A stretch of DNA of 64,000 nucleotides from a bacterium (GCA_965261085.1 OZ253442.1:1728001-1792000); one strand, 5' to 3'; positions 14,989-31,546 are shown, counted from the stretch's first letter. Made by a program: numbers and translations. Notes: a model not told the origin generated them from the letters alone.

Positions 14989-15217
14989 GAAACGGCTGCA
15001 AAGGATTCGGTTACCCACCGAACTTGTCCGTATGAATCGGCTGCAAAGGATTTTGGTGGGCCACCGGGCTTGCCTGTATGAATCGGCTGCAAAGGATTTG
15101 GTTGCGTCACCGAGCCTGCCCATATGAATCGGCTGCAAAGGATTCGGTTGCATCGCCGGGCTTGCCCGTATGAAGCGGCTACGAGGGATTCGATTTCTTC
15201 ACCGAGCCTGCCCTTAT
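14989..15217. repeat. Tandem array of five 45-46 bp units
   Basis: Units start at 14989, 15034, 15080, 15126, 15172; consensus GAATCGGCTGCAAAGGATT-N9-CACCGRGCYTGCCYRTAT. Confidence 0.9.
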
Positions 15218-15222
15218 GAAAT

Positions 15223-21963: not shown

Positions 21964-22998
21964 ATGAAAATGCCTGATACCATGCAAGCGGCGGTTTATT
22001 ACCGAAACGACGACGTGCGGGTCGAGGAGATGGCCACGCCCCGCGCCGGAGCGGGCGAGCTTCTTATCGAGACGCGCGCGAGCGGCATCTGCGGCAGTGA
22101 CGTCATGGAGTGGTACCGGGTCAAAAACGCGCCGCGCGTTCTGGGCCACGAGGTGACGGGCGTCGTCGCGGAAGCGGGCGAGGGGGTGGAGCGTTTTAGT
22201 GTGGGTGATCGCGTCTGCGTGACCCATCACGTGCCGTGCAACCGCTGCGCGCATTGTCTGCGCGGAGACCACACGGCCTGCGCGACGCTCAAGAGCACGA
22301 ATTTCGACCCGGGCGGTTTCGCCGAATTCATCCGGGCGCCCGCCATCAACGTGGAGCGGGGGACGTTCCATCTGCCCGATGAGGTGTCCGATGACGCGGG
22401 CGTGTTCGTCGAACCCTTGGGCTGCGTCCTGCGCGGTTGGAAGCGTTTTCGGTTGACGCCGGGCCTGAGCGTCCTCGTGGTGGGAAGCGGCATGTCGGGT
22501 CTGCTGCACGTTCAGGCGGCGCGCCTCCTGGGAGCGGGCCCCGTTTTCGCGACGGACGTTCATCCTTATCGCTTAGACGCCGCCGAGCGGTTTGGCGCGC
22601 GCGCGCTGCCCCCGTGTGCGGATATGGCCGAGGCCCTACGGGAGGCGAACGGCGGCCGGCTGTCGGACCGCGTCGTCTTGTGCGCGGGCGCGCCCGAGGC
22701 GCTTGAGACGGCACTCGCGTGCGTGGCGTCTTGCGGCGTCTTGCAGCTTTTCGCCCCCACGCCGCCGGGTTACCGTCCCGAGATGGATTTGAACCGAATC
22801 TGGAGTGAGCAAATCGCCATCACCACCACCTACGGCGCGGCCCCGCTCGACCTGGAAGAAGCGCTCGCGCTCATTCGCGCCGGACGCCTGGACGTCGAGG
22901 AGATGATTACCCACAGGCTCCCGCTCGCGCAGGCGCAGGAGGGCTTCCGCCTCGTCGCCCAAGCTGGTGAATCGCTGAAGGTGGTGCTCAGGCCGTAG
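21964..22998 (+). CDS. Zinc-dependent alcohol/polyol dehydrogenase
   Basis: GICGSD, GHE, C..C..C structural zinc site, GSGMSG. Confidence 0.9.
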   Translation: MKMPDTMQAAVYYRNDDVRVEEMATPRAGAGELLIETRASGICGSDVMEWYRVKNAPRVLGHEVTGVVAEAGEGVERFSVGDRVCVTHHVPCNRCAHCLRGDHTACATLKSTNFDPGGFAEFIRAPAINVERGTFHLPDEVSDDAGVFVEPLGCVLRGWKRFRLTPGLSVLVVGSGMSGLLHVQAARLLGAGPVFATDVHPYRLDAAERFGARALPPCADMAEALREANGGRLSDRVVLCAGAPEALETALACVASCGVLQLFAPTPPGYRPEMDLNRIWSEQIAITTTYGAAPLDLEEALALIRAGRLDVEEMITHRLPLAQAQEGFRLVAQAGESLKVVLRP

Positions 22999-23017
22999 AG
23001 GCGCGTAAAGTCGAATC

Positions 23018-23046
23018 TTGCAGGAGGGGGCGAAAGAGGGTAGTGT
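23018..23046 (+). promoter_or_regulatory. Sigma70-like promoter, unit 1
   Basis: TTGCAG-N17-TAGTGT, conserved in all three units. Confidence 0.65.
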
Positions 23047-23128
23047 TTTATACGAGATTGCGAGCCATGGGACGCGAGGCCATGGAGTTTCGTAGTGTGA
23101 AAATAAAGGACCCGTAAGGGGAAACGGG

Positions 23129-23344
23129 ATGACGGGTTTTGAAACGGCGACACTCGGGTTCTACACCATGCAGTCCATGATCGGGCTCGCGCAGTGCGGG
23201 CTCATCTGGATGGGCCTTAGGCAAATGGGCCGCTCTTCGGAATTGCGTGAAAGAGAAGGAGCGAGACGGCATGATGAGGTCATGAAAAATCACTCTGAAT
23301 CCATGACCGCGCTTAAGACGCTCATCGAGCGGACAGCGAAGTAA
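23129..23344 (+). CDS. Small membrane-anchored coiled-coil protein, copy 1 (71 aa, 1 heptad)
   Basis: AAGGGG RBS; protein conserved across three copies with mainly third-position changes. Confidence 0.8.
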   Translation: MTGFETATLGFYTMQSMIGLAQCGLIWMGLRQMGRSSELREREGARRHDEVMKNHSESMTALKTLIERTAK

Positions 23345-23368
23345 CACCCGCTTCCTACCACATTTCCC

Positions 23369-23398
23369 GCCTCCGTCCTCCAGGACGGGGGCTTTTTT
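23369..23398 (+). terminator. Rho-independent terminator, unit 1
   Basis: GCCTCCGTCC-TCCA-GGACGGGGGC followed by T6. Confidence 0.85.
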
Positions 23399-23465
23399 CG
23401 TCGATCCTTTGCCACTCGTCCACGGGGTGGTAGGTCAGTTCGTTTTCGGGCGGGAGGCCCGAATC

Positions 23466-23494
23466 TTGCGGGAGGGGGCGAAAGAGGGTAGTAT
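23466..23494 (+). promoter_or_regulatory. Sigma70-like promoter, unit 2
   Basis: TTGCGG-N17-TAGTAT. Confidence 0.65.
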
Positions 23495-23584
23495 TTTGCC
23501 TGAGATTTCGAGCAACGCAGGGTGAGATGCCCTGGGTTCACGAGGTTTTCAATGTAACGACGGGGGACCCGTAAGGAGGAAGGA

Positions 23585-23821
23585 ATGACGGGTTTTGAAA
23601 CGGCGACACTCGGGTTCTACACCATGCAATCCATGATCGGGCTTGCGCAGTGCGGCCTCATCTGGATGGGCCTTAGGCAGATGAGCCGCTCCTCGGAATT
23701 GCGCGAAAGAGAAGGAGCCAGGCGGCATGAGGAGGTCATGAAAAATCATACCGAGACCATGAAAAATCACGAGGAGTCCATGACCTCCCTCAAGACGCTT
23801 ATCGAGCGGACAGCGAAGTAA
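23585..23821 (+). CDS. Small membrane-anchored coiled-coil protein, copy 2 (78 aa, 2 heptads)
   Basis: AAGGAGG RBS; paralog of 23129-23344. Confidence 0.8.
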   Translation: MTGFETATLGFYTMQSMIGLAQCGLIWMGLRQMSRSSELREREGARRHEEVMKNHTETMKNHEESMTSLKTLIERTAK

Positions 23822-23845
23822 CTCTCGCTTTCCGGCAGCCATACC

Positions 23846-23875
23846 GCCTCCGTCCTTCGGGACGGGGGCTTTTTT
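23846..23875 (+). terminator. Rho-independent terminator, unit 2
   Basis: GCCTCCGTCC-TTCG-GGACGGGGGC followed by T6 (UUCG tetraloop). Confidence 0.85.
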
Positions 23876-23942
23876 CGTCGATCCTTTGCTACTCGTCCAC
23901 GGGATGGCGAGTCGGTTCGTTGTCAAACGCCATGCCCGAATC

Positions 23943-23971
23943 TTGCAGGAGGGGGCGAAAGAGGGTAGTGT
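23943..23971 (+). promoter_or_regulatory. Sigma70-like promoter, unit 3
   Basis: TTGCAG-N17-TAGTGT. Confidence 0.65.
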
Positions 23972-24053
23972 TTTATTCGAGATTGCGAGCCATGGGACGC
24001 GAGGCCATGGAGTTTCGTAGTGTGAAAATAAAGGACCCGCAAGGGGAAACGGG

Positions 24054-24332
24054 ATGACGGGTTTTGAAACGGCGACACTCGGGTTCTACACCATGCAGTC
24101 CATGATCGGGCTCGCGCAGTGCCTGCTCATCTGGATGGGCTTGAAGCAAATGGGCCGCTCCTCGGAATTGCGCGAAAGAGAAGGAGCCAGACGGCATGAT
24201 GAGGTCATTAAAAATCACGCCGAGACCATGAACAATCACGCGGAGTCCATGAACAATCACGCGGAGACCATGAAAAATCATGAGGAGTCCATGACCGCTC
24301 TCAAGACTTTAATCGAGCGGACGGCGAAGTAA
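24054..24332 (+). CDS. Small membrane-anchored coiled-coil protein, copy 3 (92 aa, 4 heptads)
   Basis: AAGGGG RBS; paralog of 23129-23344. Confidence 0.8.
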   Translation: MTGFETATLGFYTMQSMIGLAQCLLIWMGLKQMGRSSELREREGARRHDEVIKNHAETMNNHAESMNNHAETMKNHEESMTALKTLIERTAK

Positions 24333-24356
24333 CTCTCGCTTTCCGGCAGCCATACC

Positions 24357-24388
24357 GCCTCCGTCCTTCGGGACGGGGGTTTTCTTTT
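24357..24388 (+). terminator. Rho-independent terminator, unit 3
   Basis: GCCTCCGTCC-TTCG-GGACGGGGGT followed by a T-rich tract. Confidence 0.8.
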
Positions 24389-24404
24389 GCTCTACAGATT
24401 GGTG

Positions 24405-26909
24405 TTACTCATCCACGGGGTGGTAGGTCAGTTCGTTTTCGGGCGGGGGGTCCTCGTCGCCCTCGGTTGCTTCATTCTCGTAAAGGGAATCGGGCGGGGC
24501 TTCTTCGGTGAATTGCGCCTCGTCCGCCTCGGTGTCCTGTATCTCCTCGGCCTCAGGCGAGGGAGGGGAAGCCTCCTTGAGGAGCGGGGCGAGTTTCGCC
24601 TCGCGGCGGATTCTTTCGGGCAGGCCGCTCCACCTTCTTCTCACGCGCGCGTTTCCTATCGCCATGGCGAGCGCTTTTTTCGCCCCGACGAGCACCACCA
24701 GCCGCCTCGCCCGCGTGAGGGCGGTGTAGACGAGGTTTCTCTGCAGCATCGGGTAGTGCTGGGTGTGGAGCGGGATGACGACGGCGGGGTATTCGCTTCC
24801 CTGGCTCTTGTGCACGGTGATGGCGTAGGCGTGCATCACCTCATCGAGCGCGCCGCGCGTGTATTCGACGACGTTCGAATCGAAGGCCACGCGAATGCTT
24901 CCCTCCTCGGGCGCTACGCTTTTGACGACGCCGATGTCGCCGTTGAACACGTCTTTTTCGTAGTTGTTCCTCACCTGGATGAGCTTGTCGCCCGTGCGGA
25001 ATGTGCGGCCCCCGCTCTGGAGCGCCGGGGCGTTTCCTGCGGGGTTGAGCGCTTCCTGTAAGCGCGCGTTCAAGCTCTGCACGCCGAGCACGCCGCGCTG
25101 CATGGGGGAGATGACCTGAAGATCGGCGATGGCGTCGATCCCGAACCGCTCGGGAATGCGCTCGCGGCACAGTTCGATGATGAGGTCCGCGCAGCGCTCC
25201 GCCTCGCTCTCCTCGATGAAATAGTAATCGAACGGTGCGTCTTCTTTTTCCCCTTTGCCGTTTCTGGGCATCTCGCCGCGGTTCACGCGGTGGGCGTTTT
25301 CGACGATCAGACTCTCCTGCGCCTGGCGGAAGACTTCGGTGAGCCGCACCACGGGGAGGGTTTCGGAGGTGATGGCGTCGCTCAGGACGTTGCCGGGCCC
25401 CACGGAGGGGAGTTGATCCACGTCGCCCACCAGGACGAGCGTCGCCGCGTCCGGCACCGCGCGCAGCAGATGGGCCGTCAGGTGCACGTCGAGCATCGAG
25501 GCCTCATCGATGATCACGATGTCCCCTGCGAGCGGGTTTTCCGCGTCGCGGGTAAAGCCGCCCGAGTGCCAGCTATACGCCAGCAATCTGTGGATGGTGG
25601 CCGCCTCGTGGCCGGTGACTTCCGAGAGGCGCTTGGCCGCCCGGCCCGTGGGCGCGCCCAGGATGACCTGGAGGCCGAGTTTCGTATAGAGGTTGGTGAC
25701 GGCGCTTACGATGGTCGTCTTGCCGGTGCCGGGGCCTCCCGTGACGATGAGCACTTTTTGCGTGAGCGCGCCCTCTATCGCCGCGCCCTGATTGCCGGTC
25801 GCCTTTCCGCCTTCGAGCGCGCGCCGGGCGAGGTGTCCGAGGCGCTCTTTGGTCGTGTTTCCGGGCGCTCCCTGCCCCCGCATGGCGGCTTCGAGGCGCG
25901 CCTCGTCACGCGGCGTGCAAATGAGCGCGGCGAGGCGGCGGGCGACCTCGCATTCCGCGGCGTACAGCGGTCGCGCGTAGACGCGCTTGCCCTCGGCCGA
26001 GGCCAGGTTCTCGGTCATGTTCGCCGATTCGATCACCAGGGCGCCGCCCTGGCCCAGGCTCTCGAGGACGGGGGTCAAGGCGTCGGCTTCCGTCTCGAGC
26101 ATTTCAGCGGCTGTCTCGACCAGATCCCCATAGGGCGAAAAGCAGTGGCCCTCGCGCTCGGCGAGTTGGTTCAGGACATAGACGGCTCCCGCCGCCAGGC
26201 GTTCGGGCGAGTCCGCGGGGATGCCCAGATTCTGGGCGATGCGGTCCGCGCTCTTGAAGCCCACGCCGTGAATCTCCGCCGCCAGGCGGTAGGGGTCTTC
26301 GCGGAGAATCCGTATGGAGGCTTCACCGTAGGTTCGGAGAATTTTCTCGGACAGATGAAGCGAGATGTCGTATTGACGCAGGAAGAGCATGATCTCCTTG
26401 ACCTCGCTCTGGCTCTTCCAGCTCTCGACGATCGCCTCGAGTTTCTTCGCGCCCAGTCCGTTGATTTCCGTGAGGCGCTCGGGTTGGTTGTCCAGAATGT
26501 CGAGGGATTTCTCGCCGAAGCGCGCCACGATTCTCCTGGCCAGCGCCGGGCCGATGTTCTTCACGATGCCCGAAGCCAGGTATTTTTCGATTCCCTCGAT
26601 CGTCGTGGGCTCCAGAGGGCGGGCGAGTTCGGCGTGGAACTGGCGGCCGAACCTGGGGTGATCCTTCCAGGCGCCCTCGAACCGGACGCGCTCGCCCTCG
26701 CGTATGGAAGAGAGATAACCCACCACGGCCACGCGCGGAAAATCCTCGTTGTCCGGCTGGACGAGCAAGACGGTGTAGCCGGTGTCCTCCGCGCGGAAGC
26801 GAATCCGCTCCACCGCGCCGGTCAGCTCGGTAGCGTCTTCGGGGAAAAGGCCCGCCTGGGGAGGAGGGGTCCCTCTTCTGGGGCGATGCGTTCTGGGTTT
26901 TCGCGTCAT
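24405..26909 (-). CDS. recD2: ATP-dependent RecD-like helicase RecD2
   Basis: HPRFGRQF, HhH repeats, TGGPGTGKTT, IIDEASM, AITVHKSQGSE; start at 26909 avoids overlap with mazG. Confidence 0.95.
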   Translation of the reverse strand: MTRKPRTHRPRRGTPPPQAGLFPEDATELTGAVERIRFRAEDTGYTVLLVQPDNEDFPRVAVVGYLSSIREGERVRFEGAWKDHPRFGRQFHAELARPLEPTTIEGIEKYLASGIVKNIGPALARRIVARFGEKSLDILDNQPERLTEINGLGAKKLEAIVESWKSQSEVKEIMLFLRQYDISLHLSEKILRTYGEASIRILREDPYRLAAEIHGVGFKSADRIAQNLGIPADSPERLAAGAVYVLNQLAEREGHCFSPYGDLVETAAEMLETEADALTPVLESLGQGGALVIESANMTENLASAEGKRVYARPLYAAECEVARRLAALICTPRDEARLEAAMRGQGAPGNTTKERLGHLARRALEGGKATGNQGAAIEGALTQKVLIVTGGPGTGKTTIVSAVTNLYTKLGLQVILGAPTGRAAKRLSEVTGHEAATIHRLLAYSWHSGGFTRDAENPLAGDIVIIDEASMLDVHLTAHLLRAVPDAATLVLVGDVDQLPSVGPGNVLSDAITSETLPVVRLTEVFRQAQESLIVENAHRVNRGEMPRNGKGEKEDAPFDYYFIEESEAERCADLIIELCRERIPERFGIDAIADLQVISPMQRGVLGVQSLNARLQEALNPAGNAPALQSGGRTFRTGDKLIQVRNNYEKDVFNGDIGVVKSVAPEEGSIRVAFDSNVVEYTRGALDEVMHAYAITVHKSQGSEYPAVVIPLHTQHYPMLQRNLVYTALTRARRLVVLVGAKKALAMAIGNARVRRRWSGLPERIRREAKLAPLLKEASPPSPEAEEIQDTEADEAQFTEEAPPDSLYENEATEGDEDPPPENELTYHPVDE

Positions 26910-26988
26910 GAATCGATCCTGGTCGCAGCCGGGCGGGCGGGGCGATGTGTCACCGGGTGCGCATGGCCGGGGTCGTGCGAGAGTCAGG

Positions 26989-27792
26989 TTAGCCCTCGCT
27001 CCTCCCGGCTTTTTTCGCTTCACTCCAAAGCGCTTCCAATTCTTCGAGAGACACGTCCTCGGGCGAGAGTCCCCGGGCGCGCAACGCTTGTTCCATATAA
27101 TGAAAACGCGCGGTGAAACGGCCGATGCAGGCGCGGGCCGCCCCCTCGGCGTTCACCCCGATCTTTCGGGAAAGGTTCACGGCGGCGAAGAGAAAATCAC
27201 CCATCTCCTCCTCCAGCGCCTCGCGGTCTCCGCTACGCATCGCCTCTTTGAGTTCCGTCCATTCTTCTTCCACCTTGTCCGCCGCTCCGGCCGCATCCGG
27301 CCAGTCGAAGCCCACGCGCGAGGCCTTTCCCTGAAGCCTTTGGGCGCGCTGGAGGGCAGGCATGGCGGCGGGCACGCCGTCGAGAATGGATGCGGAGTTG
27401 TTCTCGTCCTCCGCGCGGGCCTTTCTCTTGTTGATCTCCCAGTTTCTGAGCACCTCGCCGCTGGTTTCGGCGAGAGCGTCCTCGAACACGTGGGGATGGC
27501 GGTCGATCATCTTTTGGGCGAGGGCGCGGGCGGTCTCCTGGGCGTCGAAGTGTCCGTTCTCCTCCGCGAGTCGGCAGTGGAATAGCACCTGAAGCAGGAG
27601 GTCGCCCAACTCTTCTTTGAGCATCGCGGGGTCGCCCGCCTCGATGGCCTCCATCACCTCGTAGGCCTCCTCGATGAGGTAGGGCTTGAGACTCTGGTGG
27701 TTCTGCTCCTTGTCCCAGGGGCAGCCGTCCGGCGCTCTGAGGCGGGCCATGACCTCCACCGCGCGCTCGAAACCGCTTTTATTCTCGCTCAA
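26989..27792 (-). CDS. mazG: Nucleoside triphosphate pyrophosphohydrolase
   Basis: GCPWDKEQ, EEAYE, EELGDLL, RHPHVF, second MazG domain EEMGDFLF. Confidence 0.95.
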   Translation of the reverse strand: MSENKSGFERAVEVMARLRAPDGCPWDKEQNHQSLKPYLIEEAYEVMEAIEAGDPAMLKEELGDLLLQVLFHCRLAEENGHFDAQETARALAQKMIDRHPHVFEDALAETSGEVLRNWEINKRKARAEDENNSASILDGVPAAMPALQRAQRLQGKASRVGFDWPDAAGAADKVEEEWTELKEAMRSGDREALEEEMGDFLFAAVNLSRKIGVNAEGAARACIGRFTARFHYMEQALRARGLSPEDVSLEELEALWSEAKKAGRSEG

Positions 27793-28033: not shown

Positions 28034-31000
28034 CTACCAGCGCACGGAACCGAACAGGCCGATGCCGTGCGAGGCGTCGCCTCCCACGCGTTCGCGGCGG
28101 TCTCCTTCGAGCCTCAGGCTCACGCGATCGCCGACCCGCAGGCGTCCGCCCAGGCGGTAGGTCTGGCTTCCCCTGTCTGAGAGCGCAAGGCCGGCGTAGG
28201 GCTTGATGAGTGCGCCGCCGGGCGCGTCCATCCCGTAGCCCACTTCGGCTTCATAACGTGCGCCTTCACTCTGTACGCTCGAGGCCAGACTCGCCGTGGA
28301 GGCTTGCGACCAGAGACGCTCCGCCCCGCTCGCGGCGTCACCCCACGAGGAACCCACCCGCACCGAGAGGCCTCGTTTCCGGGTGCCCCAGGTGAAGTGA
28401 GCCGAACCCGACACGCCCATCTCGCTGAACCTGCTCTCCTCGTGCAGCAGCAAACCGCGCGCGTTCACGTCTATCACCATGTCCAGCGAGGGGTCGAAGA
28501 AACGGAAGCCGCCGCCCAGCTCGATGCCTCCTCCTTCTTCCGCGTCGCCTTTGTCGTAGCGTACGCCCATCACCAGCGAGGGCGTGATCGATGCGCCGTG
28601 TCCGAGCTTGTACTCTCGCGAACCCTCGAGAAGCAGCCGAAAGCGGTTCGTGTTCGTATCCACCGGGAGCAGTTTGTCGCGCACCTCATCCGCCTCTATC
28701 TCGACCACCATGACGTCGCCCTTCACCGCGAGGTCGTAGCCAATCTGGCGCGCCAACGGCAAGAGGGAACTACGGAAACCGAACGCCCCCATCCGCATCG
28801 AGATGTCGGTTTCGATCTTCTCGATACCTTCTTCTTTCTGCGCATACTCACCGTTCCCGAAACCGAACATGCCCCAGATAGTGAGGCGCTCGCTCACCGT
28901 GTAGCGGATGTAGGGATAAGCGCCCGTGAGCCTGGCCTCCACGTCGTTGCGCCGCCCGTCGATCGAGAAGTATCCCTCGCCCAGGGTGTGTGAGAGCGCG
29001 ACGCCCACCATGGTGCGGCCCCATTCGAAATCGCTCCCAATAGTGCCCGTGGTCACGTCGCCGTCGAAGGTGGAACTGTTCTCATCCCCAAAGAAGCTCG
29101 TCCGCGAGCCCCGGCCCCAGGCCGTCCAACTCGCGCCCAGGCCGTTTTCTGCGTTCTGCGCCGAGGCGAGATGGAACGAACTCGCCAGAAGAAGGTCGCT
29201 CATGGATATCTCGCGGTATTCCGCCGCGGAACCATCTCCGTAAGGCCGCCTAAGCCCAGGGTGCGGCTAGCGAGGCGGGAAGCGGAAGCGAAATCCGGGT
29301 CGTCCTGAGCGAGCGGAAGCGGAGAATCATCATCAAAGAAGTTCACGTCCTGTCCGGCGAGGGTCACCTTCGACTCCCGCCTCATGGAAGGCGATTTGAG
29401 GCGATTCTCGATCATCTCCACCGCCTGGCTCGCCACCGTGCGCCCGAAGCGCGTAAGCCAGTCGTTCGTCCCCTGGGCTCTGTTATCATCGACCTTCGGA
29501 GTGGAGTTGTTTAACTTCAAATTGTTGATGGGTCCGGCGGGAATTTCGGTCAAGTCGACGATGCGAGGGCTGCCGGGTGTGTAGCTGAGCGTTACTTCCT
29601 CCCCCGGCGCCACCGCCGATTCCAGTGTCAGCGTCACCTTCTTGCCTTTGACCTCGACCTTGGAGACCGTCCGATTCGCGCCATCCACCATCACCGTGAA
29701 AGAGCCCGTCGTCGGAACGGAAGCCTCATCCAGTGGCTCGTCGTAAGTCAAAGTTATCTGATCGTCCTGCAAACTCGTGTCCACCAGCACCGGCGCTTTT
29801 CCGATGTTCTCGACCGGCATGTTCGTGAAAGACGGGGCGTCGACCCCGGTTATGTGTTTGATCGGTTTTTTCCCGGTTGAATAGGAGAGCGTCACTTCCT
29901 CGCCGGGCATCGCCGGAGTTTCCAGAATCATCGTCACGCGCGAGCCGCTCACGTTGACCGATTCGACGTCACCCGTGCTCACCGTGAAATCACCGGGGGC
30001 AGGCACGGAACCCCTGTCCAGAAGCTCGTTGTAGGTGAGCACCAGCTTGTTTCCGTCTACGGTCGCGCTAATCGGCGTCGGGGGATCGGGTTGAGCGGGA
30101 GATTTCGTAACCCCGCCGCCGCCGCCACCGCCGCCACCGCCGCCACCGCCACCGGGATTGTTGTTGCCCGGGTTGGTGTTGGTGCCGGGGTTGGTGTCGG
30201 GGTTGTTGGTGGTGTCGGGGGTGGTGTCGGGGGTGGTGTCGGGGGTGGTGTCGGGGTTGGTGTTGGTGTCGGGGTTGGTGTTGGTGTCGGGGTTGGTGTT
30301 GGTGTCGGGGTTGGTGTTGGTGTCGGGGTTGGTGTTGGTGTCGGGGTTGGTGTTGGTGTCGGGGTTGGTGTTGGTGTCGGGGTTGGTGTTGGTGTTGGTG
30401 TCGGGGTTGGTGTTGGTGTCGGGGTTGGTGTTGGTGTCGGGGTTGGTGTTGGTGTCGGGGTTGGTGTTGGTGTCGGGGTTGGTGTTGGTGTCGGGGTTGG
30501 TGTTGGTGTCGGGGTTGGTGTTGGTGTCGGGGTTGGTGTTGGTGTCGGGATTGTTGTTGGTGTCGGGATTGTTGATAGAGTCGCTTACCGTTATCACGCC
30601 CACATTGTGTATCGGGCAATCTTTATCGGTATTGTTCTCCCACACCTCGTGCATGAATGTTATCGGCGTATTAATATCAAAATTCATTTCCGCCCTAATC
30701 GTGACCGTTCGCCATTGAGTCGGCTGATTTAGGTCCGAGTTGTCCGGGTCGAACTCCCAGCCGACCGACGGCACCCAGGTGATCATTGCGTCTTCGCGGT
30801 CGACGTTTGGCGGGTAGATTCCGTCTGACACCACCATGTTATTGACGTGTATCCTGACCCACCAGCCGTCAGTTATCGGCTGCTTCGTCAGTCTCAAGCG
30901 GTAGGTGAGGGTCCCTCTAACTCCGCTGTTCAACGTGTTCGTCAACACCTCCACTTCCACGGTTCCAGTGCTCGGGTCTTGGTTCACCCAAGTCGTACGT

Positions 31001-31116
31001 GGGGGTGATTGCGCCAGGGAGTTCGCGCCGTAGAATCCGTAGGCGGCGAGCAGGAACGAGAGCGTGAATGCGACGACAGTGCGGAAGCGCCTGCCCCGAT
31101 TCGAGCGGACGCTCAT
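28034..31116 (-). pseudogene. Autotransporter adhesin (signal peptide, VNTR stalk, two SwmB-like repeats, beta-barrel) split by a frameshift at about 29200-29266
   Basis: Passenger ORF ends shortly after WLTRFGRTVASQAV; the overlapping frame continues REISMSDLLLASSFHL into a barrel ending in terminal W. Confidence 0.8.
30112..30575. repeat. 18-bp VNTR (PDTNTN, about 17 copies) plus 12-bp PDTT units and a poly-Gly run
   Basis: Tandem GTGTCGGGGTTGGTGTTG units read directly. Confidence 0.97.
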
Positions 31117-31546
31117 GAGGCGAAGGCGGGGGACCGCTCCGCTCGTGATTCTCACCATCTGGTTTTTTGGCTTTCGCACTTTTTCAGTCCGTTTGCCCGG
31201 TTCACTCCCTCGTTGCGGTTTCACGGCGACAAGCCGATCCGCCGTGGGGAGTAGAACCACGATTGCCGGGCGGGCAGTTCGGTGCGTTGGTGCAACGGCC
31301 GGGTGCTCGGTGGTGCAGATATATACAGGACGGGCGAATGTACTACCTTGGGGGCAGTAAATGTCGCATAAATGCGCGTTGTATGCAACCCCTATAATGC
31401 GCGTTACTCCCCAAAACATCGTTGTGGGTAGATATCCCATTATATGGCGTAATCAGGTTCTCGAAGACACAAAATGTTGTGGTTTACGCTTGACATCTCT
31501 GTCGAAATGAGAGAAATTGCCTTGTGAGGAGCCACGAGGAATCCCC

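What the first reader, a model, noticed from the sequence alone, without database searches (positions are those of the whole stretch)
23012..24447. Array of three autonomous mini-cassettes encoding an uncharacterised small membrane protein
Seen: each unit carries its own -35/-10 promoter with 17-bp spacing, an approximately 80-nt leader, an RBS, a 71-92 aa ORF (hydrophobic N-half, charged helical C-half ending LKTLIERTAK) and an intrinsic terminator. Nucleotide differences are mostly synonymous, so the protein seems under selection. Known: tandem long repeats with small hydrophobic ORFs and structured leaders typify type I toxin-antitoxin loci (ldr/rdl, ibs/sib). Inference: an undescribed type I TA-like or dosage-amplified small-protein system.
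Basis: partly seen in the sequence, partly recalled or inferred. Interest (0 to 1): 0.8.

Follow-up and report, generated by a model that had tools for sequence, protein, structure and literature searches.

The report
Tandem genes of unannotated small membrane protein
Three self-contained copies of a small gene sit head to tail; they belong to a large protein family that no database names, are probably membrane-anchored helices with a histidine/methionine ladder, and show no sign of being a toxin-antitoxin pair.

Summary
Window 23012-24453 carries three head-to-tail units. Each has a conserved promoter-like block, a 76-84 nt leader, a Shine-Dalgarno site, an ORF of 71, 78 or 92 aa and a strong intrinsic terminator. 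dN/dS between copies is 0.10-0.20.

The proteins match no Pfam, NCBIfam, PHROG, PADLOC or PDB family. They do belong to a large unannotated family:
- 17 paralogs in this genome.
- Matches in 22 of 22 genomes of the genus and 0 of 19 in the other genera of its family.
- 612 clusters at 50% identity in public data.
- Also present in a second lineage.

The shared architecture is a short acidic N-end, one hydrophobic helix, a basic cluster, a variable number of HxxxM heptads and a conserved ALxxLIERT end.

The array occupies one syntenic slot, between an alcohol dehydrogenase gene and recD2, with 1-5 units in 14 genomes. It arose by segmental duplication that copied the 3' end of recD2.

The type I toxin-antitoxin reading is not supported: the proteins are too long, no antisense gene was found, and the Shine-Dalgarno sites are strong. 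I read them as N-out/C-in membrane-anchored coiled-coil proteins. Their function is unknown and no RNA data were available.

The parts
23012..23467 (+). Unit 1 of the tandem array, running from the promoter block to the spacer
   Evidence: Direct repeat family D1/D2; alignment of the units
23018..23046 (+). Promoter-like block of unit 1: TTGCAG, 17 nt, TAGTGT
   Evidence: Read. The consensus scan did not call it. The block is 75% identical between genomes, against 51% just upstream.
23053..23128 (+). Leader of unit 1 (type A), with a 5' hairpin and a GGACCCG motif before the Shine-Dalgarno site
   Evidence: Fold. 6-bp consensus hairpin in 28 type-A leaders with no compensatory change. The hairpin block is 83% identical between genomes. 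Motif enrichment.
23129..23344 (+). ORF 1, 71 aa, one HxxxM heptad
23369..23402 (+). Intrinsic terminator of unit 1
   Evidence: 10 pairs, 8 of them GC, loop of 4, T run
23414..23460 (-). Copy of the 3' end of recD2 carried inside the repeat unit (relic 1)
   Evidence: family D5: 94% identical to the true recD2 end at 24407-24453
23466..23494 (+). Promoter-like block of unit 2: TTGCGG, 17 nt, TAGTAT
23501..23584 (+). Leader of unit 2 (type B, a different hairpin)
23585..23821 (+). ORF 2, 78 aa, two HxxxM heptads
   Evidence: AlphaFold2 gives a single helix over residues 3-77, mean pLDDT 73.
23846..23879 (+). Intrinsic terminator of unit 2
23891..23937 (-). Copy of the 3' end of recD2 (relic 2)
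   Evidence: family D5: 74% identical to the reference copy
23943..23971 (+). Promoter-like block of unit 3: TTGCAG, 17 nt, TAGTGT
23978..24053 (+). Leader of unit 3 (type A)
24054..24332 (+). ORF 3, 92 aa, four HxxxM heptads
24357..24390 (+). Intrinsic terminator of unit 3
24405..27023 (-). Convergent recD2-type helicase gene. Its last codons are the source of the relics in units 1 and 2.
   Evidence: Pfam AAA_19, AAA_30, HHH_RecD2, SH3_13, OB_YrrC and UvrD_C_2
21964..22998 (+). Upstream zinc alcohol dehydrogenase gene, the left border of the syntenic slot
   Evidence: Pfam ADH_N and ADH_zinc_N. It lies upstream of the array in 13 of 13 other genomes.

Best explanation
Shown:
- The three units are separate single-gene cassettes (promoter block, leader, Shine-Dalgarno site, ORF, terminator).
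- They encode paralogs of a large protein family that no database annotates.
- The array arose by segmental tandem duplication. The copied unit ran past the stop codon of the convergent recD2 gene.
- It has since changed by unequal crossing-over and gene conversion, giving 1-5 units in the same slot in 14 genomes and mosaic units.
- It also changes by gain and loss of a 21-nt repeat that adds or removes one heptad.
- The coding frame is under purifying selection.

Inferred:
- The protein is a single long helix.
- Its short acidic N-end, which has no Lys or Arg, faces out.
- One hydrophobic stretch with a conserved Gln spans the membrane.
- A basic cluster holds the C-terminal 45-66 residues in the cytoplasm.
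- That tail is a heptad repeat with Met at position a and His at position d, closed by a canonical Leu/Ile cap (ALxxLIERT).

Most likely mechanism. The proteins self-associate into membrane-anchored coiled coils through the membrane helix and the C-terminal cap. The number of His/Met layers sets the length of the stalk. It may also set the stalk's response to pH or metal ions. Gene copy number sets the dose.

This is not a toxin-antitoxin module. The cellular function is not known.
For: Anatomy.

Selection: dN/dS is 0.10-0.20.

Family size and spread:
- 17 paralogs in the genome at E <= 1e-3.
- 22 of 22 genomes of the genus have matches, 0 of 19 in the 8 other genera of the family, with 1-38 matches per genome.
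- 612 representatives at E <= 1e-3 among 1.84 billion.
- 6 of 20 genomes of a second lineage have matches; one of them has seven copies within 4.1 kb.

Synteny and copy number: the dehydrogenase gene lies upstream in 13 of 13 loci. recD2 lies downstream at full length in 12 of 13. Unit counts are 1, 1, 2, 2, 2, 2, 2, 3, 3, 3, 4, 4, 4, 5, window included.

Origin by duplication: relics of the recD2 3' end sit in units 1 and 2 (D5).

Mosaic units: window unit 2 joins a type-B leader to a GFY-type ORF. Elsewhere 8 of 10 type-B leaders go with the other membrane-helix type.

Population variants: contigs of other samples join unit to unit, skipping 490 nt with a 67-letter side and 457 nt with a 23-letter side.

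Structure: AlphaFold2 gives one helix over residues 3-77, mean pLDDT 73.

Topology: the N-flank holds 0-3 Lys+Arg and the 15 residues after the hydrophobic stretch hold 2-4, in 17 of 17 paralogs.

Heptad register: position a is I/M and position d is H/L.

HxxxM motif: it occurs 362 times in 146 representatives, against 29 on average (44 at most) in 200 shuffles. 132 of 146 have at least one.

Conserved columns across 40 diverse members: M1, G29, M33, L83 and R89 are invariant; Q22, R40, A82, L86 and T90 are at least 90% conserved.
Against: - There are no transcription or translation data. No RNA holder was listed for this stretch.
- The hydrophobic stretch of the three window copies is weak for a membrane helix (Kyte-Doolittle 1.03-1.25), so membrane insertion of these copies is not certain.
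- The promoter hexamers are poor consensus matches and the scan did not call them.
- Self-association rests on sequence pattern alone.
- Two paralogs in this genome, the 166-aa and 189-aa ones, have other repeats with no His or Met. The His/Met ladder therefore cannot be the whole function of the family.
- No conserved partner gene or fused domain gives a functional anchor.
Confidence: 0.5

Rival explanations
1. Type I toxin-antitoxin array of the ldr/rdl or ibs/sib kind. Each unit would encode a membrane-damaging peptide whose translation is blocked by an antisense small RNA made from the same unit.
For: - The units are tandem repeats of about 460-510 bp in one intergenic slot.
- Each ORF has a hydrophobic N-half and a polar, charged C-half.
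- Each unit has its own promoter-like block and terminator.
- The leader hairpin is more conserved between genomes (83%) than third codon positions (68.5%), as an RNA target or an antisense gene would be.
- Units 1 and 3 carry a minus-strand hairpin plus T run opposite the ribosome-binding site, at 23128-23111 and 24053-24036.
Against: - Length is 71-92 aa, and 60-268 aa (median 112) among 146 relatives. The cited paper gives under 60-70 aa.
- Most of the protein is a conserved charged helix with a conserved end motif.
- The minus-strand hairpin is absent from unit 2 and from the leaders of other genomes.
- The single minus-strand promoter-like site (24304-24277) is in unit 3 only.
- Synonymous sites vary all along the first 50 codons in 17 units.
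- The Shine-Dalgarno sites are strong, and the predicted folds are no more stable than shuffles (z -1.44, -0.19, -0.65).
- There is no Pfam or PADLOC match.
Confidence: 0.1
2. Metal-binding or heme-binding ladder. The repeated His(d)/Met(a) layers of an assembled coil would bind Cu, Ni, Zn or heme at the inner face of the membrane. The proteins would then buffer, store or sense metal, and the number of heptads would set the capacity.
For: - HxxxM is enriched about 12-fold over shuffles and is present in 132 of 146 relatives.
- His and Met fall on the core positions of the heptad.
- Glu follows His in most repeats.
- Heptad number varies from 1 to about 6 among orthologs.
- His/Met pairs one helical turn apart are metal ligands in periplasmic silver- and copper-binding proteins such as SilE and PcoE (recalled, not checked here).
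Against: - The tail is predicted to be cytoplasmic. In the cytoplasm, Met-based Cu(I) sites are unusual (established knowledge, recalled).
- Two paralogs of this genome have repeats with no His or Met.
- No metal-transport or heme gene recurs next to family members.
- No homology to any metal-binding protein was found. The best PDB profile match has E 0.48, and one member in 40 matches NicO at E 0.00028, below Pfam's standard.
Confidence: 0.15
3. Holin-like or phage-derived membrane-permeabilising protein (BhlA-type architecture) that was domesticated and multiplied.
For: - The architecture is the same: an N-terminal membrane helix and a charged C-terminal helix.
- Language-model look-alikes include clusters that carry Holin_BhlA, but at low scores of 0.77-0.88. 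These are leads only.
Against: - The Holin_BhlA model matches none of the 17 family loci in the genome. Its two sub-threshold hits lie elsewhere.
- No Pfam or PHROG match passes threshold.
- tblastn finds nothing in 50,697 phage records or 72,556 plasmid records.
- The array sits in a conserved chromosomal slot with no phage genes.
- No endolysin or other recurrent neighbour was found.
Confidence: 0.05
4. The ORFs are not the functional product. The repeats would be non-coding, or the real gene would lie on the minus strand, which carries ORFs of 99-125 aa.
For: The codon-aligned antisense frame is open in 30 of 38 units. One search lists minus-strand ORFs of 99, 125 and 102 aa over the three units.
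Against: - The antisense frame is broken by stop codons in 8 of 38 units, unit 3 of the window among them.
- The plus frame has dN/dS 0.10-0.20, Shine-Dalgarno sites and terminators.
- It has relatives at 30-45% protein identity that share no nucleotide similarity.
Confidence: 0.02

Closest known systems
E. coli long direct repeats (ldr/rdl) and ibs/sib type I toxin-antitoxin arrays
   Same: Both are tandem repeats of a few hundred bases in one intergenic region. Each unit has its own promoter, a leader and a small ORF with a hydrophobic segment and a polar C-end (passages of PMC2887945).
   Different: - The ORFs here are 71-92 aa, not 19-35 aa.
- Most of the protein is a conserved charged heptad helix.
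- No antisense RNA gene was found.
- There is no sequence relationship.
- The family has 17-38 diverged copies per genome.
BhlA/UviB-type holins (Pfam PF10960)
   Same: They are small proteins with one N-terminal membrane helix and a charged helical C-terminal part. They appear as weak language-model look-alikes.
   Different: - No profile match.
- No phage context.
- Many paralogs per genome.
- HxxxM heptads and the LIERT end are not features of that family, so far as these searches show.
PspB (phage-shock protein B), a small N-out/C-in membrane protein with a cytoplasmic leucine zipper (architecture recalled)
   Same: The predicted topology and size class are the same: a membrane-anchored cytoplasmic coiled coil that would act by protein-protein contact.
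   Different: - No Pfam PspB match in 6 + 40 proteins scanned.
- No psp operon context.
- Variable repeat number and multi-copy arrays.
Mitochondrial ATPase inhibitor IF1, a His-rich pH-sensitive coiled coil
   Same: It is the best PDB profile match, over the His/Glu-rich heptad region. It offers an analogy for a coiled coil whose assembly depends on histidine protonation (the IF1 behaviour is recalled).
   Different: The match is not significant (E 0.48-0.87). IF1 is soluble and has no membrane helix.
SilE/PcoE-type Met/His metal-binding proteins (recalled)
   Same: Both have repeated His and Met one helical turn apart on an alpha-helix.
   Different: Those proteins are periplasmic and soluble and use HxxM/MxxH spacing. 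Here the spacing is HxxxM on a tail predicted to be cytoplasmic. No homology was found.

Membership tests
Type I toxin-antitoxin system | The toxin is small (under 60 aa, at most about 70) and highly hydrophobic | tested here: not met
   The ORFs are 71, 78 and 92 aa, and 146 relatives have a median of 112 aa. The best 19-residue window scores Kyte-Doolittle 1.03-1.25, and 45-66 residues form a charged tail. The criterion is taken from passages of PMC2887945.
Type I toxin-antitoxin system | An antisense or trans-encoded small RNA pairs with the toxin mRNA | tested here: inconclusive
   No conserved minus-strand promoter or terminator was found. There is no block of frozen synonymous sites and no Rfam match. 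The leader is conserved at the nucleotide level, and no RNA run was available.
Type I toxin-antitoxin system | Tandem duplication of the locus in one intergenic region | tested here: met
   Three units in the window and 1-5 units in 13 related genomes.
Type I toxin-antitoxin system | The protein is toxic when overexpressed | not testable with these tools
   This needs an induction experiment.
Known type I toxin protein families in Pfam (Ldr, Fst, Hok, Ibs and others) | Profile match to the family model | tested here: not met
   No Pfam family at E <= 0.1 for units 1 and 3. Unit 2 has only sub-threshold DUF5305 and L31 matches. No family is shared by more than 2 of 40 diverse relatives.
Holin_BhlA (PF10960) | Profile match above the curated cut-off | tested here: not met
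   The model run against the whole genome gives two sub-threshold hits (E 0.048 and 0.44). Neither lies at any of the 17 family loci. Pfam scans agree.
Anti-phage defence proteins (PADLOC) | Profile match | tested here: not met
   0 families at E <= 1 for the three proteins.
The new family itself (MTxFE ... QC ... HxxxM repeats ... ALxxLIERT) | N-terminal MT-x-[FY]-[EQ], one hydrophobic helix with Gln, a basic cluster, HxxxM repeats and a C-terminal L-[ILV]-x-R-[TSN] | tested here: met
   All three window proteins carry every element. Among 146 representatives the counts are: N-terminal motif 105, G..Q in the helix 128, at least one HxxxM 132, C-terminal motif 106.

The most novel reading that the evidence does not exclude
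The family is a previously unrecognised class of membrane-anchored coiled coils whose core is a ladder of alternating His and Met layers. Once assembled, the ladder would bind a row of metal ions or hemes at the cytoplasmic face of the membrane. Its length would be tuned by gain and loss of 21-nt repeats and its dose by unequal crossing-over in arrays of autonomous mini-genes. The family would have spread between unrelated lineages that share a habitat.
Probability: 0.12. Interest if true: 0.8.

Novelty: new variant of a known kind. Interest (0 to 1): 0.55.

Why it matters
Small membrane proteins are badly under-annotated. Here one family is under purifying selection and has 612 clusters at 50% identity in public data. 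It has up to 38 matches per genome, yet carries no name in Pfam, NCBIfam, PHROGs, PADLOC or the PDB.

The family shows a clear mode of evolution: self-contained mini-genes that multiply in place and change length one heptad at a time. Its hallmark, His and Met on the core positions of a coiled coil, can be tested directly with a synthetic peptide.

For the scan, the case also shows that the pattern 'tandem repeat plus small hydrophobic ORF' alone does not identify a type I toxin-antitoxin locus.

Tried and rejected
Family and structure libraries:
- Rfam on the region (E <= 1) and on the whole window (gathering score) gave no match.
- Pfam, NCBIfam, PHROGs and PADLOC on the three proteins gave nothing above threshold.
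- Pfam on 40 diverse relatives gave nothing shared.
- A profile of the family against PDB sequences gave a best E of 0.48.

Expression and binding:
- No RNA holder was listed for the stretch, so expression could not be examined.
- The homodimer prediction gave no verdict. It is reported here only and is evidence neither way.

Regulation of the leader:
- I considered CsrA binding to the paired GGA motifs of the leader. I dropped the idea because the CsrA model finds no gene in the genome, which is 96% complete.
- I considered a sigma-54 promoter. It fits one unit by eye, but the GG at -24 is not conserved in the 38 aligned units.
- I considered pairing of GGACCCG with codons 2-4 to enclose the start site. 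The pairing exists in the window's units, but orthologs beginning MTTFQ lack the complementary bases.
- I looked for a leader regulon. nhmmer with both leader types finds only the three array units in the genome.

Genomic context:
- No recurrent partner gene was found. Only an IS transposase and aconitase-family genes recur near some paralogs.
- No fused longer forms scored among 8000 candidates of 414-2000 aa, which is weak evidence.
- There are no matches in phage or plasmid records.
- Arrays in the second lineage show no consensus promoter or terminator in the simple scan. The cassette design is therefore shown only for the window's genus.

Literature:
- Three searches were made. The first two used a recalled link between such bin names and sponge microbiomes. 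They listed nothing on this family; I saw titles and abstract starts only.
- PMC2887945 was read as passages only.
- Supplements were not consulted.

Not counted with a tool: in the printout, the terminators of the 38 units appear present by eye in all but one (the L021 unit starting at 2716).

Full report
WHAT IS THERE

Window 23012-24453 holds three head-to-tail units whose starts are spaced 456 and 469 nt. Read from left to right, each unit has the following parts.
- A conserved block with TTGC(A/G)G, 17 nt, then TAGT(G/A)T.
- A leader of about 76-84 nt.
- A Shine-Dalgarno site.
- An ORF of 71, 78 or 92 aa.
- A 10-bp GC-rich hairpin followed by a T run. The region has 9 terminator-like sites against 1.9 +/- 1.3 in shuffles.
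- A spacer.

The ORFs differ in length because a 21-nt unit, which encodes seven residues of the type E-[TS]-M-[KN]-N-H-x, is present once, twice and four times. The spacers of units 1 and 2 hold copies of the last codons of the convergent recD2-type helicase gene (24405-27023, minus strand; Pfam). These relics are 94% and 74% identical over 47 nt in the register, family D5. The duplicated segment therefore ran from the promoter block past the recD2 stop codon. This marks a segmental tandem duplication, not the insertion of a mobile element.

The promoter hexamers are poor consensus matches (3 of 6 in the first, 3-4 of 6 in the second), and the simple scan did not call them. What speaks for them is conservation. 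Between genomes the block is 75% identical, while the sequence just upstream of it is 51% identical.

IS IT A GENE?

Between the three copies there are 11-12.5 synonymous and 5.5-9 non-synonymous differences. This gives dN/dS 0.10-0.20 at dS about 0.3.

The codon-aligned antisense frame is open in 30 of 38 related units and broken in 8, window unit 3 among them. Open antisense frames of this kind are a usual side effect of GC-rich codon use. Relatives at 30-45% protein identity, which share no nucleotide similarity, keep the same protein architecture. The plus-strand ORFs are therefore real genes.

THE FAMILY

No library names these proteins.
- Pfam, NCBIfam, PHROGs and PADLOC give nothing above threshold.
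- A profile of 40 diverse members has its best PDB match at E 0.48.
- No Pfam family is shared by more than 2 of the 40.
- Ten clusters looked up carry no name from any source.

Yet the family is large.
- An iterated profile finds 17 ORFs in this 4.27-Mb genome.
- The profile hits 22 of 22 other genomes of the same genus and 0 of 19 genomes of the eight other genera of its family, with 1-38 matches per genome.
- In the whole phylum set, one further genome of another family matches.
- Among 1.84 billion representative proteins, 612 reach E <= 1e-3 and 180 reach E <= 1e-10.
- Record titles of related loci read 'Nitrospinota bacterium', 'uncultured Nitrospinaceae bacterium' or just 'bacterium'.
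- One record titled 'Alphaproteobacteria bacterium' holds 16 matches.
- In that record's family, 6 of 20 genomes match at E <= 1e-12. One of them has seven copies within 4.1 kb.

The family is thus patchy across at least two lineages and tends to form tandem arrays in both. There are no matches in 50,697 phage or 72,556 plasmid records.

ARCHITECTURE

Across 40 diverse members the conserved elements are these.
- An N-end M-T-x-[FY]-[EQ]-x-A-[ST]-L.
- One hydrophobic stretch with a nearly invariant Gln and an invariant Gly.
- A basic cluster.
- A variable middle.
- An end A-L-x-x-L-I-E-R-T.

Topology. In all 17 paralogs of this genome the N-flank has 0-3 Lys+Arg, and the 15 residues after the hydrophobic stretch have 2-4. 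By the positive-inside rule (established knowledge) this gives N-out/C-in. The three window copies have the weakest hydrophobic stretch of the family, Kyte-Doolittle 1.03-1.25 against 1.6-2.25 for most paralogs. Membrane insertion is therefore less certain for them.

Fold. AlphaFold2, run with the family alignment, gives a single helix over residues 3-77 with mean pLDDT 73.

Heptads. In the tail, the heptad register places Ile/Met at position a and His/Leu at position d. The repeated unit is therefore a His/Met core layer, and the conserved end is a normal Leu/Ile cap. HxxxM is a hallmark of the family. It occurs 362 times in 146 representatives, against 29 expected from shuffles (44 at most), and is present in 132 of 146. 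Two paralogs of this genome use other repeats with no His or Met.

THE ARRAY IN OTHER GENOMES

In 13 related genomes the array lies in the same slot. The alcohol dehydrogenase gene is upstream in 13 of 13. recD2 is downstream at full length in 12 of 13. In the thirteenth, only a short weak recD2 match lies at the edge of the locus.

Unit numbers are 1, 1, 2, 2, 2, 2, 2, 3, 3, 4, 4, 4 and 5. With the window's 3 this makes 38 units in all. Heptad number also varies among orthologs, whose lengths run from 64 to 112 aa.

Two leader types (A and B) and two types of hydrophobic stretch occur in different combinations. Window unit 2 joins a type-B leader to the ORF type of units 1 and 3, while 8 of 10 type-B leaders elsewhere go with the other ORF type. 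This points to gene conversion or recombination between units. Short-read contigs of other samples join unit to unit, skipping 490 nt (side of 67 letters) and 457 nt (side of only 23 letters, weak). That fits variants with fewer units in related populations.

LEADERS

Each leader type has a 5' hairpin, but no pair shows a compensatory change. The window's leaders also do not fold better than shuffles (z -1.44, -0.19, -0.65).

The type-A hairpin block is 83% identical between genomes, more than third codon positions at 68.5%. It is therefore selected at the nucleotide level, whether as an RNA element or as an operator. The leaders occur nowhere else in the genome.

The motif GGACCCG lies 20-27 nt before the start codon in 8 of 17 family leaders, against 0.0034 expected per leader. 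It spans subfamilies that share only a third of their residues. I have no explanation for it. CsrA is absent, and pairing with the start region is not conserved.

TOXIN-ANTITOXIN READING

The passages of PMC2887945 that I read describe type I toxins as under 60-70 aa and highly hydrophobic, with a small polar C-end. They are often tandemly duplicated and are always paired with a small antisense RNA.

Here the tandem duplication and the hydrophobic-then-polar layout are met. The size and hydrophobicity criteria are not met.

For the antisense RNA I found no conserved minus-strand promoter or terminator. The one minus-strand promoter-like site is in unit 3 only. The hairpin plus T run opposite the ribosome-binding site is in units 1 and 3 only and is absent in other genomes. 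Synonymous sites vary along the whole ORF. Without RNA data this stays open, and I put the reading at about 0.1.

The holin reading rests only on low-scoring look-alikes and fails the profile test.

MOST LIKELY MECHANISM (INFERRED)

The proteins are membrane-anchored coiled coils. They would assemble through the Gln-bearing membrane helix and the Leu/Ile cap. Between these two lies a stalk of His/Met layers. Its length changes by one heptad at a time, and its stability could depend on pH or metal ions. Gene dose would be set by array size.

No partner gene, fused domain or expression data anchors a cellular function. The dimer prediction gave no verdict and is listed under Tried and rejected only.

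VERDICT

The interpretation as a dosage-amplified small-protein system is compatible with the evidence, and the toxin-antitoxin label is not supported.

The finding is a real, selected, unannotated protein family with an unusual core motif and an instructive mode of evolution. I rate interest at 0.55 and novelty as a new variant of a known kind (tandemly amplified small membrane-protein genes). The boldest reading still open is a metal-binding or heme-binding His/Met ladder, at a probability of about 0.12.

Noticed in passing
window 29200-31440 (minus strand): A 746-aa ORF holds about 22 tandem copies of the hexapeptide TNPDTN, encoded by an 18-nt repeat at 30172-30571. A poly-Gly run and repeated domains follow.
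   Followed up: no
window 14989-15220: A 46-nt unit is repeated 5.1 times at 80% match. It lies across or between minus-strand ORFs.
   Followed up: no
G000:C1:2085442-2090285 (L016:10893-15736): Two nearly identical family paralogs of 81 aa lie 4.6 kb apart, with an IS transposase gene (DUF772 and DDE domains) between them.
   Followed up: partly
Leaders of family genes in G000 (for example window 23106-23112, 23563-23569, 24031-24037): The motif GGACCCG lies 20-27 nt upstream of the start codon in 8 of 17 family leaders, across diverged subfamilies. This is far above chance (0.0034 expected per leader) and is unexplained.
   Followed up: partly
L032-L036 (record titled Alphaproteobacteria MAG) and G059:C1:3061506-3065641: The same family forms tandem arrays in a second, unrelated lineage, with seven copies in 4.1 kb in G059. 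This hints at transfer between lineages. The simple scan finds no consensus promoters or terminators in those arrays.
   Followed up: partly
G000:C1:1967788-1970850 (L015) and 4221772-4224994 (L018): Aconitase-family genes lie next to family paralogs at two separate loci, with 23.6% identity between the two aconitase-family proteins. This may be coincidence.
   Followed up: no
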